Source: a virus
Reading direction: 5' to 3' (one strand)
IMG/VR virus record: IMGVR_UViG_3300045996_002710
Location: 1-52,185 of that record
Length of the DNA stretch: 52,185 bases
Made by a program: the position numbers and the translations under genes. Positions 1 to 52,185 of this stretch are shown here, piece after piece; positions within the stretch are counted from its first letter, which is position 1, and every line of letters starts with the position of its first letter. Under the pieces are notes generated by a model. The model saw nothing but the letters and a program-made list of their open reading frames with translations. It ran no database searches and had not been told where the DNA came from.

Positions 1-127
1 TCCAGCGCCGCCACCGAAGCAACGATGCGTCGAGGCGACTCGTTGGCGGTGACGACGGAGCGGTTCGGTGTCGTCTGCCACGGACCGGACGTAGCCGCCC
101 GCGCTACCACCTCATCGGCAGCGAGGC
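1..127. repeat. Terminal direct repeat, copy 1 (identical to 52059-52185)
   Basis: Base-by-base comparison of both window ends: tccagcgccgccaccgaagcaacg...catcggcagcgaggc. Confidence 0.97.
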
Positions 128-21439: not shown

Positions 21440-21667
21440 CTACGTCGGTGGTCGATCCGCCACGAACACCGCCTGGCCAGGCTGGCCGCGGGTCCACCCC
21501 TCGACGCGCAGGATGCGCATCGCCGAGACGATGGCGTTCTGCTTCCACCCGTCGGCCTTCAACGCCGACGTCGACGGCAGGCGGTCGCCCGGCCTGAGTT
21601 CGCCGGATCGGATCTTCGCGCGGTACAGCTCGGCGAGCTGCTCGTACAAGGGCATGGCTGTAGGCAT
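21440..21667 (-). CDS. Stand-alone GntR-type winged-HTH regulator (75 aa)
   Basis: LYEQLAELYRAKIRSGELRPGDRLPSTSAL..AIVSAMRILRVEGW..GQAVFV. Trimmed to the ATG at 21667 (GGGAG upstream). Confidence 0.75.
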   Translation of the reverse strand: MPTAMPLYEQLAELYRAKIRSGELRPGDRLPSTSALKADGWKQNAIVSAMRILRVEGWTRGQPGQAVFVADRPPT

Positions 21668-21709
21668 GGTCAAACTCCCTGGGTCGCACCCCAAGGTGAC
21701 CATCGCGGT

Positions 21710-21765
21710 GTTGACCATGTCAACCATGTCGAGCAGCTTACTACCTACTCGACTATGTCGAGTAG
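21710..21765. promoter_or_regulatory. Operator-like palindromes in the divergent region upstream of the GntR-like gene
   Basis: GTTGAC-cat-GTCAAC at 21710-21724 and CTACTCGAC-tat-GTCGAGTAG at 21745-21765. ATGTCGAG occurs twice. Confidence 0.55.
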
Positions 21766-21904
21766 GTGCGCTACGGTCGAGCCGAGCCCCGCTCCCTGGG
21801 TCGCACCGGGACGGGGGCTCGCCCCGGTGGACGCGGGACCAGCTGCGAGCCGCGGGCCGGCACCTGCGGCCCCGCGTCCACCCCCACACCTCCGGGGAGG
21901 AACC

Positions 21905-22039
21905 GTGGTCACCGACAGCGGTATCAGGCACCGGCGGTGCTGGTGGCGGCTCGACCGGCACTGCGCCGGCTGCGCCCAGCCCTGGCCCTGCTACGTCGTC
22001 ATCGCCGCCCGCGCACGCAGCTGGTGGCGGTGGGCATGA
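21905..22039 (+). CDS. Small Cys/Trp-rich protein (44 aa; alternative ATG start at 21755)
   Basis: GTG preceded by GGGGAGGAACC. Motif CAGCAQPWPC. The stop overlaps the next ATG (ATGA). Confidence 0.5.
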   Translation: MVTDSGIRHRRCWWRLDRHCAGCAQPWPCYVVIAARARSWWRWA

Positions 22040-22281
22040 CCTCCGTCGACGTCGAGGCCATCACGACCTTGACCGCCCAGCACGTCGTCGGCCGGACCGT
22101 CGAGGACGACGGCGAGCTGAGCTTCTGGGTCGAGGACGGCGGCGGGACAGCGGTGGAGCTGACCCACGAGATCGGCAACCCGGAACTCGCCGCACGGCGG
22201 ATCACCGAGTTGGCGAACGCGCTGCACCTGCACGCCGAGCGGATCCGCGGCCGGAACCGGGTCGAGGTGTCCTGGACCTGA
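22036..22281 (+). CDS. Hypothetical protein (81 aa)
   Basis: High GC3. ATGA-coupled to 21905..22039. Confidence 0.6.
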   Translation: MTSVDVEAITTLTAQHVVGRTVEDDGELSFWVEDGGGTAVELTHEIGNPELAARRITELANALHLHAERIRGRNRVEVSWT

Positions 22282-22656: not shown

Positions 22657-22907
22657 CCGTCCAGCTCAGCACCGAGAACGCAACGCTCCTCGCCCAGATC
22701 GGCGTCAAGAACGCGCTCAAGGCACGCGCTGCGTGGGAGCAGGCGCAGGAGTCGGCCTACGAGATGGCGAAGCTGGCCATCAACGCGGGAGCGGACCCGG
22801 ACGAGATCATCCGGCCCCTCAACGACGTCCTCGGCTCCGACCACCTCGGCGAGCTGGCCATGCTTGGCAACTACGTCCAGGACCAGCAGATGGTCGCGAC
22901 TGGTTGA
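22653..22907 (+). CDS. Hypothetical helical protein (84 aa)
   Basis: GTGA overlap with 22438..22656. High GC3. Confidence 0.6.
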   Translation: MTVQLSTENATLLAQIGVKNALKARAAWEQAQESAYEMAKLAINAGADPDEIIRPLNDVLGSDHLGELAMLGNYVQDQQMVATG

Positions 22908-22931
22908 ACGAGTCATCTTGCAACGCCGAAA

Positions 22932-22962
22932 AGCGCCCCACCCGAAGACCGGGTGGGGCGCT
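22932..22962. terminator. Bidirectional intrinsic terminator between the plus-strand operon and the end of the late operon
   Basis: 13-bp stem AGCGCCCCACCCG-aagac-CGGGTGGGGCGCT. A T-run follows on the minus strand (cttttcgg). Confidence 0.8.
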
Positions 22963-22999
22963 CTCGTTGATCCCGTTGGACCCGGGAAGCGGCAGGGGG

Positions 23000-23287
23000 T
23001 CAGTAGCCGCGGGCCTGCCGGACCGTCTCCGGGACGGACGGCGGGTACTCCGGTGCCTTGCCGGCGCCCAGGCCGACCAGCAGCTTCCCGAGCCACGGGT
23101 ACGCCTTCTCCACCGCGCGGGCGACGGCGTAGTAGACCGCCGTGACGAGCGCGGCCACGCCGACGACGAGGGAGCTGGAGGCGTCCTCGGGGACGACGAC
23201 GTTGTAGTTGGTGGCGAGCCAGGTCAGGAACGCGCCGACACCGATCGGCACCCAGGTCCGAACGAGGCTGGTGATGAAGTCGTTCAT
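23000..23287 (-). CDS. Holin-like two-TM membrane protein (95 aa)
   Basis: Trimmed to the ATG at 23287 (GAAGGAG upstream). Hydrophobic segments TWVPIGVGAFLTWLA and LVVGVAALVTAVYYAV. Last gene of the late operon. Confidence 0.65.
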   Translation of the reverse strand: MNDFITSLVRTWVPIGVGAFLTWLATNYNVVVPEDASSSLVVGVAALVTAVYYAVARAVEKAYPWLGKLLVGLGAGKAPEYPPSVPETVRQARGY

Positions 23288-23358
23288 GGGGCACTCCTTC
23301 GTGGAGCTGTTCAGGGGAACCGGCGATTGCCTGAATGGCGGCCGGGGTGGTTCAGGGT

Positions 23359-23628
23359 TCAGGCGGTGACCCAGTCCTCGGCGAGGATGTCGGTCTGCGA
23401 GGCGACCCACGGCACGTACTCGCCGTCGACGGTCCGCATCGCCAGATAGGGGCGGATCACGATGGTGTCGCCCTCGTTGACGTGGAAGGCCTTGGCCGAG
23501 TTCGCGTTGGCCGGCACGCCCTGCGGGTAGCCCGGCTGCAGCGCGATCCACATGCCCTTGCCGTTCCAGCCGTCGCGGGCTGCGCGGCCGCCAGCCTTCA
23601 ACGCGTTCAGAACTGCTCCGAAATCCAC
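23359..23628 (-). CDS. DUF2829 / Tad2-like protein (anti-Thoeris gcADPR-sponge family)
   Basis: FGAVLNALKAGGRAARDGWNGKGMWI ... PYLAMRTVDGEYVPWVASQTDILAEDW matches the DUF2829 hallmark pattern. GTG preceded by GAAGGAG. Confidence 0.75.
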   Translation of the reverse strand: MDFGAVLNALKAGGRAARDGWNGKGMWIALQPGYPQGVPANANSAKAFHVNEGDTIVIRPYLAMRTVDGEYVPWVASQTDILAEDWVTA

Positions 23629-23660
23629 ACGATCTCCTTCAGGGGTATTAGGGATAGACC

Positions 23661-23760
23661 GCGCCCCGGCCCGCGTGCTACCCGCTACCCCTAGACGGGG
23701 ACGCAGGCCGGGGCACGACAGAACGCCCGCGGCCTGTCCGGCCTACGGGCTAACTTGAGG
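23661..23760 (-). other. Structured leader upstream of the Tad2-like gene (nested GC-rich hairpins)
   Basis: GCCCCGGCC (23663-23671) pairs with GGCCGGGGC (23706-23714), enclosing CCCC-taga-c-GGGG. A further GCCCG..CGGGC hairpin lies at about 23722-23747. Confidence 0.4.
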
Positions 23761-23767
23761 GGAGTGG

Positions 23768-23795
23768 AAGAGCAGAAAGCACCGAAGTGCGGTGC
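23768..23795 (-). terminator. Intrinsic terminator after the endolysin/membrane-protein pair
   Basis: On the minus strand: GCACCG-cactt-CGGTGC followed by TTTCTGCTCTT. Confidence 0.6.
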
Positions 23796-23921
23796 GATCA
23801 AGCTACGACCGACCGCGACCGGTGACGTCGAGGTGCGATGCACGAAGGCGCCGGGGCATGTCGAGCGCGGCGACCCGGACCACTACGGGAAGACGGGGCT
23901 GTTCCCGTTGACCTGGACCGA

Positions 23922-24248
23922 CTAGGGCGTCGGCGGCCGGCCGCGGAGGAGCGCGTCGTGCTCGCGCAGGCTCGCCTCTATCCGGCCGACAGAGTCCTTC
24001 ATCGACCCGCCGCCGTTCGGGGTGACCTCGGCCCGGACCCGTGCCATGTCGGACTCGACGGCGGCGAGCCGGTCCATGATGCCGGGACGGGCGGGGACGC
24101 CGGGTCGGGCTGGTTCACCGCGGAGGTCGTCGAGGAGGTACCCGACGCTCCGGATTCCACGCCACGCCTTCTGCACGAGCCACCCCAATGCCGTCAGGCC
24201 GGCGACGATGCCGGCGATCGTTGCCGCGAGGCTTGTCACGTGGTTCAC
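23922..24248 (-). CDS. Lysis-associated membrane protein (108 aa; holin/spanin-like candidate)
   Basis: N-terminal TM helix LAATIAGIVAGLTALGWLV followed by a coiled-coil-like segment. Immediately downstream of the endolysin. Confidence 0.6.
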   Translation of the reverse strand: MNHVTSLAATIAGIVAGLTALGWLVQKAWRGIRSVGYLLDDLRGEPARPGVPARPGIMDRLAAVESDMARVRAEVTPNGGGSMKDSVGRIEASLREHDALLRGRPPTP

Positions 24249-24270
24249 CTATACCCCGCGTTCGTGTGGT

Positions 24271-25158
24271 TCAGACGGACAGGTGGGTGGCGTTGATCGC
24301 CGCTTTCACCTTGGCGTCGATGATCTCTTCGATGTCGGCGAGCGTCGGCAGCAGCGGGCCGAGCTGCTCGACGACGAGCGCTGCGACGGCGGCGGGGTCG
24401 ACACCGCCGGACTTGAGCGCAGCGACGTCTCCGGCGACCGCGGTCAGGTCACGGCGCAGCGCGAGGAGCGGGTTCGGGTAGCCGACCTTTGCCTGCTCGT
24501 TCCACGGGTAGTCGAACTTGATGACCTCCGTGCCGGCGACGAGGGCGGTCGCGGCGCGTTCGGCGTTGGCGATGAGCTGTGAGTCAGCCACGGAGTAGCT
24601 CCCTCCGGCGGCGGTGCCGCCGATCGCGGCGCTGACCGCGCCGAGGAGTCGGTCCCAGGGGAAGTTGCCGCCCGGGTCGGTGTGGTCGGTGCCGCCCCAG
24701 GCGAGGCGCATGTCGTTGTGCCCGTAGAAGGCTCTGACCTTGGGGTTGGCTTTCATCTCCGCGACGCTGGCCCGCCGGACCTGGAACCCGGCGAGGTCCG
24801 GGTCGTTGCGGATCAGCCACGCGAGGCAGTAGCCGAGCCGGTCCCACGCAACCCGGTCCAGCCACTGTTGCCGGGTCCAGCTGTTCAGGCCGGTGATCTC
24901 GACCGCGTACGCGTTCTCGTTCCCGGTGCCGCTGCCGGCGTGGCCGGCTTTCGCCTCGGTGTCGAGGGACTGGGTGACGCTGTCGGCGTCGGCGTACAGG
25001 TGCGCGGACGTGCCGTCGGGCCGGCGGGTCGCGTAGCTCGCCTCGTTGCTGTCGGAGGCCGTGTTCGCGGTGGCGTGGATCGCGATGCCGAACTTCCGGT
25101 CGTCGGCGTCGCGGTAGCTGTTGCGGCCCTGCACGTACGGGATGCCGGGGATTCTCAT
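24271..25158 (-). CDS. Endolysin: N-acetylmuramoyl-L-alanine amidase (Amidase_2/PGRP type) with a C-terminal extension
   Basis: GIAIHATAN..., AYAVEITG and GGTDHTDPG motifs. Confidence 0.85.
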   Translation of the reverse strand: MRIPGIPYVQGRNSYRDADDRKFGIAIHATANTASDSNEASYATRRPDGTSAHLYADADSVTQSLDTEAKAGHAGSGTGNENAYAVEITGLNSWTRQQWLDRVAWDRLGYCLAWLIRNDPDLAGFQVRRASVAEMKANPKVRAFYGHNDMRLAWGGTDHTDPGGNFPWDRLLGAVSAAIGGTAAGGSYSVADSQLIANAERAATALVAGTEVIKFDYPWNEQAKVGYPNPLLALRRDLTAVAGDVAALKSGGVDPAAVAALVVEQLGPLLPTLADIEEIIDAKVKAAINATHLSV

Positions 25159-41136: not shown

Positions 41137-41317
41137 GGCGACCACGCCGCTTCGGCTGCTCGGCCTCGACGCCCTCGGGTGCACGCGCGGTGAACCGTTC
41201 CGGCATGTCCTGGACGATCTGGTCGGCGGTGTCGTACTCGTCGCCGGCGTTCAGAGCGACACTCCGGCCGTTCCAGCCGACGAACCCGTAGTCGCCGGCG
41301 ACGTAGACCTTGCTCAT
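41129..41317 (-). CDS. Small hypothetical protein inside the glycosylation cassette (62 aa)
   Basis: ATGA overlap upstream. High GC3. Confidence 0.55.
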   Translation of the reverse strand: MSKVYVAGDYGFVGWNGRSVALNAGDEYDTADQIVQDMPERFTARAPEGVEAEQPKRRGRRG

Positions 41318-42060
41318 GCCGGCACTCCCGGGTGCGTCGGGGAGAGGTAGCCGCGCTGCGCGAGGTAACCGTCCATCGTCAGGGCGTGGTCTTTGATGTG
41401 CCCCAGCTGGACGGCGGTGTTCACGAACACGGGGTATCCGGCGGTGCCGGCGCGGAGGCAGAACGTGATGTCCTCGCCCATGATCCGGCCGTTGAAGTCG
41501 GTCTCCTGGAACCAGGGGAACGCCTTGGAGAAGCCGATCTCTCCGGGCCGGTGGGGGTTCGGGTAGTCACGGATTCGCTCGAGGACGGTGCGGTGGATGA
41601 GCAGGCACGCGGCGCCGGTCGCGAAGACCTGCATCATCGCGTCGGGCTGCCACTCGTCGTACCGGACGAACTGCACGTCGTCCTCGGTGCCGGTGAGGTC
41701 GTACAAGGTCGGGAAGTAGCGGCCGTTGTCGTTGCCGAAGCACAGCCCGCCGACGATCGGCGCCTTCTCCGGGTCCGCCTCGGCGAGGAGCCGCTCGAGC
41801 AGGTCGTAGCCGAACGTCATGTCGGTGTCGAGGAACAGCAACCACTCGGCCTGCGTGTCCTCGAGGAACTTCTTGACCAGCGCGTTGCGGGCGCCGGAGA
41901 CGTTGACGCCGGATCCCCAGCCGAGCGGGCCTCCACCCTCGCGGAGCCGGCGGGTCGTGAATTCGTCGTGCCGGTCCAGGTCGATCAGGCACTCCATGAA
42001 CCGCGACTTGACGTCGGTTCCACAGACATAGCCGATGACGACCTTGCCATTTCCTGACAC
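41314..42060 (-). CDS. GT2-family glycosyltransferase (248 aa)
   Basis: LLFLDTDM DxD motif and EDITFC. Trimmed to the GTG at 42060 (AAGGGA upstream) so that it does not run through the capsid terminator hairpin. Confidence 0.8.
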   Translation of the reverse strand: MSGNGKVVIGYVCGTDVKSRFMECLIDLDRHDEFTTRRLREGGGPLGWGSGVNVSGARNALVKKFLEDTQAEWLLFLDTDMTFGYDLLERLLAEADPEKAPIVGGLCFGNDNGRYFPTLYDLTGTEDDVQFVRYDEWQPDAMMQVFATGAACLLIHRTVLERIRDYPNPHRPGEIGFSKAFPWFQETDFNGRIMGEDITFCLRAGTAGYPVFVNTAVQLGHIKDHALTMDGYLAQRGYLSPTHPGVPA

Positions 42061-42085
42061 TGTGTCCCTTTCCCAGGTAGGCGAA

Positions 42086-42112
42086 AGCCCCGGCACCTGG
42101 GATGCCGGGGCT
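42086..42112 (-). terminator. Hairpin immediately downstream of the major capsid gene (attenuator/terminator)
   Basis: AGCCCCGGCA-7 nt-TGCCGGGGCT, a 10-bp stem. Confidence 0.6.
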
Positions 42113-51833: not shown

Positions 51834-52185
51834 GGCGCCCAGCCCTCGCTGTAGTCGTCGTGGTCGGCCCAGGCGACAGCCACGGCACGAAGCATCGACT
51901 CGCCGAACCCCACGTAGTACGGGTTCGGGTAGGACGCCTCAAAGCGGAGCAGCGTCTCGGCCAGCCCGAGCAGGCAGCGCTTGCCCTCCACCTCGCGGAG
52001 CACGCGGGCAGGGTCGTGACGGGCGATGTGGGCGGCGTCCTCATGCGTCGGCCACAGTTCCAGCGCCGCCACCGAAGCAACGATGCGTCGAGGCGACTCG
52101 TTGGCGGTGACGACGGAGCGGTTCGGTGTCGTCTGCCACGGACCGGACGTAGCCGCCCGCGCTACCACCTCATCGGCAGCGAGGC
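51830..52185 (-). CDS. DUF6221-like protein, 5'-truncated by the window end (true GTG start corresponds to position 158)
   Basis: AAHIARHDPARVLREVEGKRCLL core. The reading frame is open to the window edge and continues in frame at 111-158. Confidence 0.75.
   Translation of the reverse strand, partial: LAADEVVARAATSGPWQTTPNRSVVTANESPRRIVASVAALELWPTHEDAAHIARHDPARVLREVEGKRCLLGLAETLLRFEASYPNPYYVGFGESMLRAVAVAWADHDDYSEGWAP
52059..52185. repeat. Terminal direct repeat, copy 2 (identical to 1-127)
   Basis: Same 127-nt string as the window start. Consistent with a circular-contig assembly overlap. Confidence 0.97.

What the first reader, a model, noticed from the sequence alone, without database searches (positions are those of the whole stretch)
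23359..23628. DUF2829 / Tad2-like anti-Thoeris candidate embedded in the lysis cassette
Seen: the 89-aa product reads FGAVLNALKAGGRAARDGWNGKGMWI ... RPYLAMRTVDGEYVPWVASQTDILAEDW. This is the hallmark pattern of DUF2829. Established knowledge: DUF2829 proteins (Tad2) sequester the gcADPR signal made by Thoeris ThsB and block that defence. Here the gene lies between the endolysin/membrane-protein pair and the terminal holin-like gene. It has its own strong RBS (GAAGGAG).
Basis: partly seen in the sequence, partly recalled or inferred. Interest (0 to 1): 0.65.

Follow-up and report, generated by a model that had tools for sequence, protein, structure and literature searches.

The report
Tad2-family immune-signal sponge gene in actinophage
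This small phage gene is a clear member of the known Tad2 family, whose proteins soak up the alarm molecules of bacterial Thoeris-type immunity; it is an ordinary new member, carried in a gene slot that holds different accessory genes in related phages.

Summary
The ORF at 23359..23628 (-) encodes the quoted 89-aa protein, has a GAAGGAG ribosome-binding site 5 nt before its GTG start, and has coding-type composition (GC3 0.92).

- **Family:** it matches Pfam PF11195 "Tad2-like" (E 7.9e-26, near full length) and solved Tad2 structures (E 6e-17 to 1e-10).
- **Fold:** the AlphaFold model (pLDDT 95.5) matches only Tad2 structures in the PDB.
- **Ligand pocket:** all ten ligand-contact positions of SPO1 Tad2 are kept or replaced as in HgmTad2. 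The second, cyclic-dinucleotide pocket of HgmTad2 is not kept.

The best reading is a tetrameric sponge for a TIR-made ADP-ribose signal, most likely 3'cADPR. The ligand is not settled, because family members also bind His-ADPR, N7-cADPR, cyclic dinucleotides or cUMP.

The window is a complete, circular, uncultured temperate actinophage genome. The gene lies between the endolysin/holin-like pair and a conserved 95-aa membrane protein. Related phages carry other cargo in this slot: a Bro-N/ANT antirepressor, ANT plus Tad2 (two alleles), or unknown genes. A conserved terminator-like hairpin precedes the slot.

Verdict: a new member of a known family, of modest interest.

The parts
23359..23628 (-). 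Tad2-like (PF11195/DUF2829) gene: 89 aa, GTG start, stop codon included in the coordinates
   Evidence: ORF list. GC3 0.92. PF11195 E 7.9e-26. PDB Tad2 chains E 6e-17 to 1.4e-10. AF2 pLDDT 95.5, and Foldseek hits with E<=1e-3 are all Tad2. Pocket residues W21 N22 G23 M64 T66 D68 V72 W74 S77 T79 D80.
23634..23640 (-). Ribosome-binding site GAAGGAG, 5 nt upstream of the GTG start
   Evidence: Read. The core GGAGATC also precedes the Tad2 genes of L003 and L129, where it lies inside the 3' end of the antirepressor gene.
23714..23750 (-). Terminator-like element on the gene's strand: a GC-rich hairpin (23725..23750) followed by GUUCUGUCGUG (23724..23714). It lies between the lysis genes and the cargo slot.
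   Evidence: Folds at -21.4 kcal/mol, z -2.85. The equivalent places in L086, L003 and L129 fold at -16.8 to -25.5 kcal/mol with different inner-stem sequences. Consensus folding on the MAFFT alignment did not recover it.
23779..23795 (-). Second terminator-like hairpin (GCACCGCACTTCGGTGC + TTTCTGCTCT) downstream of the holin-like gene. It is not conserved in L086.
   Evidence: Pattern scan (2 sites found against 1.4 expected, so weak on its own) and alignment.
23764..23925 (+). Small conserved ORF (53 aa from the GTG at 23764), convergent with the holin-like gene. The two stop codons overlap in CTAG. A TAACTT -10-like hexamer lies 7 nt before the GTG.
   Evidence: Homologues at the same place and orientation in L086 (50% identity) and L129/L137 (73%). 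Codon-position differences 13/10/24 against L086. -10-like hexamer. No Pfam, PHROG or NCBIfam hit.
23288..23358 (-). Conserved 71-nt leader between the cargo gene and the 95-aa membrane-protein gene. It carries CCTGAA...TTCAGG...CCTGAA boxes, a short CCGGC/GCCGG hairpin and the RBS AAGGAGTGC.
   Evidence: Conserved whatever the upstream gene is, in 6 of 7 related sequences. Single-sequence folds are not significant.
23000..23287 (-). 95-aa membrane protein ('mem95') that closes the slot in all related phages
   Evidence: Hydrophobic segment 30-59 plus an amphipathic N-terminal segment. phrog_10742 E 1.7e-22, function unknown. 67-85% identical homologues downstream of the slot in L003, L004, L086, L129, L130, L134, L136 and L138. 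46-49% identical homologues directly after Amidase_2 endolysins in the low-GC phages L087 and L088.
22929..22961 (-). Strong intrinsic terminator after mem95: a 12-13 bp GC stem followed by UUUU on the minus strand. It is shared with the convergent + strand genes.
   Evidence: Fold -46.5 kcal/mol, z -3.5, with none of 200 shuffles as stable.
23922..24248 (-). 108-aa holin-like protein with one N-terminal TM segment and a hydrophilic C-terminal tail
   Evidence: phrog_15431 'holin' E 4.7e-10. tblastn hits to Arthrobacter and Actinomyces phage genes annotated holin or membrane protein. TM segment at residues 3-26.
24271..25158 (-). Endolysin (N-acetylmuramoyl-L-alanine amidase)
   Evidence: PF01510 E 2.1e-11; several endolysin PHROGs.

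Best explanation
The gene encodes a Tad2-family 'sponge'.

**Mechanism, inferred from solved homologues.** Four copies assemble into a tetramer with two pockets at protomer interfaces. Each pocket is built from the W21-N22-G23 loop, strand residues M64/T66/D68/V72, and the W74-V-A-S77-Q-T79-D80 helix. The pockets bind and hide the ADP-ribose-derived alarm molecule made by a host TIR (ThsB-type) enzyme. The most likely ligand is 3'cADPR (1''-3' gcADPR) of type I Thoeris. With the signal hidden, the Thoeris effector is never switched on and the phage can replicate.

**Shown here.** Family membership, the fold, conservation of the contact residues, absence of the HgmTad2-type cyclic-dinucleotide pocket, and phage origin.

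**Inferred, not shown.** Tetramer formation, the ligand, and the in-vivo effect.

**Genomic setting.** The gene is interchangeable cargo. It sits in a variable slot between the endolysin/holin-like genes and a conserved membrane-protein gene, at the end of the late arm of a complete temperate actinophage genome. Relatives carry an antirepressor in this slot, with or without a Tad2 allele or unknown genes. A conserved terminator-like hairpin upstream suggests the slot is not simply read through from the lysis genes. The timing of expression is unknown.
For: - **Pfam:** PF11195 E 7.9e-26, profile positions 1-71 of 73.
- **Solved structures, by sequence:** ModTad2 E 6e-17, SptTad2 1.5e-15, HgmTad2/AcrIIA7 1.1e-14, SPO1 Tad2 1.4e-10.
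- **Fold:** AF2 pLDDT 95.5 and pTM 0.79, with the helix-then-sheet order described for Tad2. All 24 Foldseek PDB hits with E<=1e-3 are Tad2 chains (query-normalised TM 0.64-0.74); the next hit has E 0.69.
- **Pocket positions:** SPO1 W25 N26 I63 T65 D67 H71 W73 S76 T78 D79 (10.1101/2023.05.01.538930) map to W21 N22 M64 T66 D68 V72 W74 S77 T79 D80. Eight are identical, and the other two match HgmTad2 M76 and V84 (PMC10680739).
- **Clade conservation:** these residues are invariant or at least 90% conserved across 62 homologues.
- **Helix motif:** WVASQTD matches the 3'cADPR binders SPO1 (WVPSQTD) and Hgm (WLASQTD) better than ModTad2 (WTPSVSD).
- **Prior from experiments:** four of five tested Tad2 homologues blocked type I Thoeris (10.1101/2023.05.01.538930).
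- **Origin:** the gene is on a complete phage genome, with a 127-bp terminal direct repeat, capsid, portal and integrase.
- **Cargo behaviour:** it behaves like mobile accessory cargo.
Against:
- Overall sequence similarity is about equal (41-46% identity) to all four solved Tad2 proteins. The top hit by score is the His-ADPR binder ModTad2, which does not block type I Thoeris.
- The contact residues tested are shared by binders of different ligands, so they do not fix specificity. The QTD-versus-VSD rule rests on very few proteins.
- The host is unknown, so the presence of a Thoeris system in it was not checked.
- No sigma-70-type promoter was found for the gene.
Confidence: 0.6

Rival explanations
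1. It is a Tad2-family sponge, but its physiological ligand is not 3'cADPR. Candidates are His-ADPR (type II Thoeris), N7-cADPR (type IV Thoeris), a Pycsar or CBASS nucleotide bound at a second site, or a TIR product specific to actinomycetes.
For: - Tad2 homologues inhibit CBASS, Pycsar and Thoeris types I, II and IV, and specificity changes within the family (PMC12393519).
- The best solved hit by sequence and by fold is ModTad2 bound to His-ADPR.
- His-ADPR occupies the same interface pocket, so conserved W/N/W/D residues do not discriminate between ligands (PMC12393519).
- The clade has extra invariant residues (Y34 P35 G37 N41 G53) in the beta2-beta3 insertion. This is the region that forms the second pocket in HgmTad2 (PMC10680739).
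- A second Tad2 allele with a ModTad2-like WAPTVSD motif occupies the same slot in a related phage.
Against: - The helix motif WVASQTD and T79 match the gcADPR binders rather than ModTad2.
- The HgmTad2 cyclic-dinucleotide pocket is not conserved. Only P32 of nine positions is kept, and R31, S47, F70 and N85, whose mutation abolishes binding in HgmTad2, are Q, A, I and P here.
- Most tested homologues block type I Thoeris.
Confidence: 0.22
2. It acts as an AcrIIA7-like anti-CRISPR that inhibits Cas9 rather than as a signal sponge.
For: The DUF2829 protein AcrIIA7 (the same protein as HgmTad2) was first reported as a type II CRISPR inhibitor. PDB entries 8kbi and 9kzr carry that name and match at E 1e-14 and 9e-13.
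Against: - Binding of AcrIIA7 to Cas9 was never shown, and the authors of the Tad2 work argue that the family is anti-Thoeris (10.1101/2023.05.01.538930).
- AcrIIA7/HgmTad2 has a long insertion that this 89-aa protein lacks.
- From general knowledge, not tested here: type II CRISPR-Cas systems are uncommon in high-GC filamentous actinomycetes.
Confidence: 0.03
3. The gene has no counter-defence role in this phage. It could have a lysis-related, regulatory or virion-associated function suggested by its neighbours, or be a decaying passenger gene.
For: - It lies among lysis genes here and directly after an endolysin in a Nonomuraea prophage (L097).
- Close homologues lie inside head-tail connector modules or between the terminase and portal genes.
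- Expression timing is unknown and no promoter was found.
Against: - It is a soluble protein with no TM segment.
- The ORF is intact, with coding-type composition, its own RBS and fully conserved pocket residues, which argues against decay.
- Its changing positions in different phages fit mobile accessory cargo, not a fixed structural or lysis role.
- Relatives do without it (L086, L130, L138), so it is not needed for lysis.
Confidence: 0.12

Closest known systems
Tad2 of Bacillus phage SPO1 (gp34.65; PDB 8SME/8SMF/8SMG, 8WJE)
   Same: Both are 89 aa and single-domain with the same fold (query-normalised TM 0.64-0.73). All ten described ligand-contact positions are conserved or conservatively replaced. 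The helix motif is nearly identical (WVASQTD here, WVPSQTD in SPO1). Neither has the long insertion.
   Different: Identity is only 41%. The beta2-beta3 loop differs (GYPQGVPANANSA here). I63 is M and H71 is V. The SPO1 protein comes from a lytic myovirus of a Firmicute, this one from a temperate siphovirus-type actinophage. The SPO1 gene sits in a long run of small genes, not next to lysis genes.
ModTad2 / MoTad2 of a Myroides odoratus prophage (PDB 8V3E, 9EIB)
   Same: It is the best-scoring solved relative (E 6e-17, 44% identity, TM 0.73-0.74). It is similar in length, prophage-borne, and has the same W-N and W...D pocket framework.
   Different: ModTad2 binds His-ADPR and cUMP and does not block type I Thoeris (10.1101/2024.01.03.573942; PMC12393519). 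Its helix motif is WTPSVSD (V and S where this protein has Q78 and T79), and its beta2-beta3 loop is shorter.
HgmTad2 (= AcrIIA7; PDB 8KBI-8KBM, 8WJC) and SptTad2 (8WJD)
   Same: The gcADPR pocket residues are the same (W21 N22 G23 M T/A V W S T D), with the identical motif W(L/V)ASQTD.
   Different: These proteins carry a longer insertion that forms a second pocket for cGG/cGAMP. That pocket is not conserved here: one of nine positions is kept and two fall in a deletion.
Tad1 and Acb2 sponges
   Same: They work the same way: small phage proteins form homo-oligomers that sequester immune nucleotide signals (PMC12393519).
   Different: They are unrelated in sequence and fold, and this protein has no similarity to them.
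immI-type antirepressor region of phage P22 (comparison from general knowledge)
   Same: In relatives, the slot holding this gene usually contains an antirepressor (Bro-N/ANT or P22_AR_N) embedded at the end of the late genes and bracketed by terminator-like elements.
   Different: This window has no antirepressor gene. No Arc/Mnt-type regulators or antisense RNA were identified. The comparison concerns layout only and was not tested.

Membership tests
Tad2 / DUF2829 (Pfam PF11195) | Significant, near full-length match to the PF11195 profile above the gathering score | tested here: met
   E 7.9e-26, 90.8 bits against a cut-off of 25, profile positions 1-71 of 73, protein residues 1-87.
Tad2 / DUF2829 (Pfam PF11195) | Sequence homology to experimentally solved Tad2 proteins | tested here: met
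   phmmer against the PDB: 8v3e/9eib 6e-17, 8wjd 1.5e-15, 8kbi 1.1e-14, 9kzr 9e-13, 8sme 1.4e-10. No other family scores below E 0.8.
Tad2 / DUF2829 (Pfam PF11195) | Tad2 fold: an N-terminal helix followed by an antiparallel sheet with short helices in the loops | tested here: met
   AF2 pLDDT 95.5, with elements H3-11, E15-18, E27-31, H42-48, E61-65, E71-74, H78-82, E86-88. The 24 Foldseek hits with E<=1e-3 are all Tad2 chains.
Tad2 / DUF2829 (Pfam PF11195) | Conserved ADPR-signal pocket residues (SPO1 W25 N26 W73 S76 T78 D79 plus I63 T65 D67 H71) | tested here: met
   They map to W21 N22 W74 S77 T79 D80 plus M64 T66 D68 V72. Eight are identical and two match HgmTad2. They are at least 90% conserved across 62 homologues.
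Tad2 / DUF2829 (Pfam PF11195) | Encoded by a phage or prophage as a small stand-alone protein | tested here: met
   89 aa and single-domain, on a 52-kb circular contig that also encodes capsid, portal, tail, endolysin and integrase.
Tad2 / DUF2829 (Pfam PF11195) | Homotetramer with two interface pockets | not testable with these tools
   Only monomers can be modelled here. Testing needs a multimer prediction or SEC-MALS/crystallography.
Tad2 / DUF2829 (Pfam PF11195) | Binds and sequesters 1''-3' gcADPR (3'cADPR) without degrading it | not testable with these tools
   Needs a biochemical assay.
Tad2 / DUF2829 (Pfam PF11195) | Restores phage infection of Thoeris-expressing cells | not testable with these tools
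   Needs an infection assay. The host and its defence repertoire are unknown.
HgmTad2/SptTad2-type dual sponge (gcADPR plus cyclic dinucleotides) | Long beta2-beta5 insertion carrying the cyclic-dinucleotide pocket residues R31 P32 D34 L36 K46 S47 F70 T71 N85 | tested here: not met
   Only P32 is kept. R31 is Q, S47 is A, F70 is I and N85 is P, and D34 and L36 fall in a deletion.
ModTad2-type His-ADPR sponge (type II Thoeris) | Close relationship to ModTad2/CcaTad2/TmoTad2. The helix motif W-T-P-S-V-S-D is used here as a heuristic marker; it is not an established rule. | tested here: inconclusive
   ModTad2 is the best solved hit, but at only 44% identity, similar to the other solved Tad2 proteins. 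The motif here is WVASQTD, as in gcADPR binders. A ModTad2-like motif (WAPTVSD) occurs in the allele of the related phage L129/L136.
Phage lysis cassette component (holin, antiholin or spanin) | Membrane-spanning segment(s) or a lysis-protein domain | tested here: not met
   No hydrophobic segment: the maximum Kyte-Doolittle 19-residue mean is 0.29. The only domain found is PF11195. Relatives with the same lysis genes lack this gene.

The most novel reading that the evidence does not exclude
The stretch between the holin-like gene and the conserved 95-aa membrane-protein gene may be a counter-defence hot spot of this uncultured actinophage group. It would be an antirepressor-linked slot, set off by a terminator-like hairpin, in which immune-evasion genes are swapped.

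On this reading:
- The two Tad2 alleles found in the slot (SQTD motif here and in L003; TVSD motif in L129/L136) would target different TIR signals.
- The unknown cargo genes in the same position would be new anti-defence proteins. These are the 183-aa gene in L130, the 139 + 60 aa genes in L134, and the 87 + 122 aa genes in L138.
- The clade-invariant loop GYPxGxxxNxN (Y34 P35 G37 N41) could form a second ligand pocket of unknown specificity.
Probability: 0.2. Interest if true: 0.5.

Novelty: new member of a known kind. Interest (0 to 1): 0.25.

Why it matters
The gene adds one more member to a family with thousands of catalogued homologues, so it changes little by itself. It has three modest points of value.

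1. It indicates that TIR/Thoeris-type signalling immunity is a barrier for phages of high-GC filamentous actinomycetes. Its closest relatives lie in Spirillospora, Actinomadura and Actinoplanes genomes. No isolated actinophage in GenBank carries a close homologue.

2. Its clade is only about 41-46% identical to every solved Tad2 and has its own conserved loop. It is therefore a reasonable candidate for testing ligand specificity.

3. The variable slot it occupies gives a concrete short list of neighbouring unknown genes in related phages to screen as counter-defence candidates.

Tried and rejected
**Searches that found nothing**
- Megablast of 10 kb around the gene against GenBank phages gave no match.
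- An exact-sequence look-up of the protein found it not on record.
- tblastn of the 95-aa membrane protein against GenBank phages gave no match. A search of the large protein collection returned 35 unnamed metagenomic homologues.
- NCBIfam has no model matching the Tad2-like protein or its neighbours.
- Rfam found nothing in 22800..24300.
- There are no tRNA genes that might point to an attachment site.

**Promoter and RNA structure**
- The sigma-70 promoter scan found none. My own TANNNT/TTGACA scan found no convincing promoter for the Tad2 gene.
- RNAalifold on the upstream hairpin did not recover a consensus, because the MAFFT alignment does not put the stems in register. I relied on single-sequence folds instead.
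- Folds of the 71-nt leader were not better than shuffles.

**Literature**
- The supplementary tables listing the experimentally typed Tad2 homologues are not held, so the protein could not be placed relative to them.
- Searches for Thoeris in actinomycetes gave nothing usable.

**Ideas considered and rejected**
- The + strand ORF at 23755..23925 is chance: rejected, because it is conserved in relatives.
- The Tad2 gene and the antirepressor are generally linked: rejected, because ANT was found only in this phage group.
- The HgmTad2-type cyclic-dinucleotide pocket is present: rejected.

Full report
**1. The observation**

The minus-strand ORF 23359..23628 exists as described. It starts with GTG and encodes 89 aa containing both quoted peptides. 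GAAGGAG lies at 23640..23634, 5 nt before the start.

Base composition by codon position (0.66/0.48/0.92 GC) is that of a real gene in this 69.5% GC sequence. The start agrees with the MDFG... N-termini of homologues. There is a single copy in the window.

**2. What the protein is**

- **Pfam.** PF11195, now named "Tad2-like", matches at E 7.9e-26 and 90.8 bits over 71 of 73 profile positions. PHROGs 1048 and 872 (function unknown) match equally well. NCBIfam has no model for it.
- **Solved structures, by sequence.** Only Tad2 proteins match: ModTad2 (8V3E/9EIB) E 6e-17, SptTad2 1.5e-15, HgmTad2 = AcrIIA7 1.1e-14, and SPO1 Tad2 1.4e-10.
- **Predicted fold.** An AlphaFold2 model built on 62 homologues has mean pLDDT 95.5. 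In a Foldseek search of the PDB, the 24 hits with E<=1e-3 are all Tad2 chains (query-normalised TM 0.64-0.74), and the next hit has E 0.69.

**3. Ligand pocket**

Yirmiya et al. (10.1101/2023.05.01.538930) list the SPO1 Tad2 residues that hold 1''-3' gcADPR: W25, N26, W73 and D79, plus T78, I63, T65, D67, H71 and S76. Li et al. (PMC10680739) list the HgmTad2 residues: W21, N22, G23, M76, A78, T82, V84, W87, L88, S90, T92 and D93.

I fetched SPO1 gp34.65 and aligned it with this protein and the solved sequences. The SPO1 positions map to W21, N22, M64, T66, D68, V72, W74, S77, T79 and D80. Eight are identical, and the other two carry the HgmTad2 residue. All are invariant or at least 90% conserved among 62 homologues of 54-87% identity.

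The second pocket of HgmTad2, for cyclic dinucleotides, is not conserved. One of nine positions is kept. The four residues whose mutation abolishes binding there (R31, S47, F70, N85) are Q, A, I and P here.

**4. Which ligand**

Family membership does not settle the ligand.

- Tad2 homologues have been shown to block type I, II and IV Thoeris, CBASS and Pycsar (PMC12393519).
- ModTad2, the best solved hit here, binds His-ADPR in the same interface pocket and does not block type I Thoeris (10.1101/2024.01.03.573942).

Identity to the four solved proteins is similar (41-46%), so this protein belongs to a clade of its own. That clade has extra invariant loop residues (Y34 P35 G37 N41 G53).

The only discriminating hint is the helix motif:

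| Protein | Motif |
|---|---|
| This protein | WVASQTD |
| SPO1 Tad2 | WVPSQTD |
| HgmTad2 / SptTad2 | WLASQTD |
| ModTad2 | WTPSVSD |

T79 corresponds to the SPO1 T78 that hydrogen-bonds the adenine. On this basis, and because four of five homologues tested first blocked type I Thoeris, I take 3'cADPR as the most likely ligand (about 0.6). Another signal gets about 0.2.

**5. The genome**

The window is the whole contig and carries an exact 127-bp terminal direct repeat. It is therefore a circular assembly and a complete genome of about 52 kb.

It encodes an HK97-type capsid protein, a portal, a 917-aa tail protein, an endolysin, a tyrosine integrase and a GntR-type HTH protein. It has no nucleotide match among GenBank phages. 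Its capsid protein is about 36% identical to those of Gordonia, Mycobacterium and Rhodococcus phages.

The nearest Tad2 homologues in named genomes are in Actinoplanes italicus (66%), Spirillospora sp. (65%), Actinomadura sp. (63%) and Streptomyces anandii (59-61%). The best match among isolated phages is 49%, in Bacillus phages. The phage is thus an uncultured temperate actinophage whose host is unknown.

**6. The neighbourhood**

In the direction of transcription (minus strand) the order is:

1. Tail gene.
2. Two small genes.
3. Amidase_2 endolysin (24271..25158).
4. A 108-aa protein with one TM segment, whose homologues are annotated holin in Arthrobacter and Actinomyces phages (23922..24248).
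5. A 293-nt gap.
6. The Tad2-like gene.
7. A 71-nt spacer.
8. A 95-aa membrane protein (23000..23287).
9. A strong terminator.

The immunity/integrase region follows on the other strand.

Homologues of the 95-aa protein in two low-GC phages lie directly after the endolysin.

**7. A variable slot**

I used the 95-aa protein as an anchor and collected related sequences. The frame is conserved: tail, a protein of about 160 aa, Amidase_2 endolysin, small membrane protein(s), the slot, the 95-aa protein, then a GntR HTH gene (with an integrase where the locus shows one). The slot content differs:

| Sequence | Slot content |
|---|---|
| This window | Tad2 only |
| L086 | Bro-N/ANT antirepressor only |
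| L003 / L004 | ANT plus a Tad2 88% identical to this one |
| L129 = L137, L136 | ANT plus a Tad2 allele only 49% identical, motif WAPTVSD |
| L130 | ANT plus an unknown 183-aa protein |
| L134 / L135 | P22_AR_N antirepressor plus 139-aa and 60-aa unknowns |
| L138 / L139 | 87-aa and 122-aa unknowns |

The Tad2 gene carries its own RBS core (GGAGATC) in each context.

Further from this group, Tad2-like genes sit in quite different places:
- Among head-tail connector genes (L001, L002).
- Between the terminase and portal genes (L005).
- At the end of an early-type operon (L090, L091).
- Directly after an endolysin (L097).

This is the behaviour of mobile accessory cargo, not of a lysis component.

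**8. Regulation: partly resolved**

Upstream of the slot, on the cargo strand, four related sequences each form a 10-11 bp GC-rich hairpin at the same position. The inner-stem sequences differ, and a U-containing tract follows (-16.8 to -25.5 kcal/mol; z -1.9 to -4.3). In the window it lies at 23725..23750.

The hairpin looks like a terminator that closes the lysis transcript before the slot. Alignment-based consensus folding did not recover it, and no sigma-70-type promoter was found downstream of it. When and from where the Tad2 gene is transcribed therefore remains unknown.

The frequent company of an antirepressor suggests a separately controlled unit, as in the immI region of P22. That comparison comes from general knowledge and was not tested.

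**9. Verdict**

It is a new member of a well-known family. Interest is modest (0.25). The variable slot and the second allele are the most useful leads.

Noticed in passing
window 23764..23925 (+): A small ORF (53 aa from the GTG at 23764) runs convergent to the holin-like gene, and the two stop codons overlap in CTAG. It is conserved at the same place in L086 (50% identity) and L129/L137 (73%), with an excess of third-position changes (13/10/24). A TAACTT hexamer 7 nt before the GTG would fit a leaderless transcript. It matches no known family.
   Followed up: partly
window 23288..23358 (-); also L086:5924-6000, L003:4040-4111, L136:3931-4000, L138:3932-4000, L130:2855-2932: The roughly 70-nt leader of the 95-aa membrane-protein gene is conserved whatever gene lies upstream. 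It has two CCTGAA boxes about 45 nt apart, an inverted TTCAGG between them, and a short CCGGC/GCCGG hairpin with some compensatory changes. It could be an operator or an RNA control element. The folds are not better than shuffled sequence.
   Followed up: partly
L129:2108-2386 (same contig as L137:2108-2389); L136:3649-3930: A related phage carries a different Tad2-like allele in the same slot, after a Bro-N/ANT gene. It is 49% identical to this one and matches PF11195 at E 1e-20. Its helix motif WAPTVSD resembles that of the His-ADPR binder ModTad2 (WTPSVSD). Two alleles with different pocket motifs in one slot may mean different target signals.
   Followed up: partly
L130:2303-2854; L134:3291-3886; L138:3300-3931: Unknown genes occupy the same slot in related phages: one of 183 aa, a pair of 139 and 60 aa, and a pair of 87 and 122 aa. 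The 183-aa protein has no Pfam match. By position they are candidates for further counter-defence or accessory functions.
   Followed up: partly
window 1..127 and 52059..52185: The first and last 127 bases are identical. The contig is therefore a circular assembly and most likely a complete phage genome of about 52.06 kb.
   Followed up: yes
window 41314..42096 (-): A family 2 glycosyltransferase gene (PF13632 E 1.9e-6, PF00535 E 1.1e-4) lies directly downstream of the major capsid gene, inside the structural module.
   Followed up: no
window 21443..21652 (-): A 70-aa stand-alone GntR-type winged-helix protein lies in the immunity region. GntR-domain genes occur at the corresponding place in relatives (L133, L134, L136, L138), so it may be the repressor or a Cro-like regulator of this phage group. 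Longer overlapping ORFs on both strands (21440..21961 on the minus strand, 21766..22281 on the plus strand) make gene calls here uncertain.
   Followed up: no
L005:12805-14598 (Actinoplanes italicus prophage, PVMZ01000003.1): The prophage carrying a 66%-identical Tad2-like gene (between the terminase and portal genes) also encodes a minor capsid protein (Phage_min_cap2) that also hits an ADP-ribosyltransferase toxin domain (PF03496).
   Followed up: no
L097:5228-6333 (Nonomuraea purpurea): A Tad2-like gene (52% identity) directly follows, and overlaps the end of, a 258-aa amidase-type endolysin gene. This is a second, independent case of a Tad2-like gene placed next to lysis genes.
   Followed up: no
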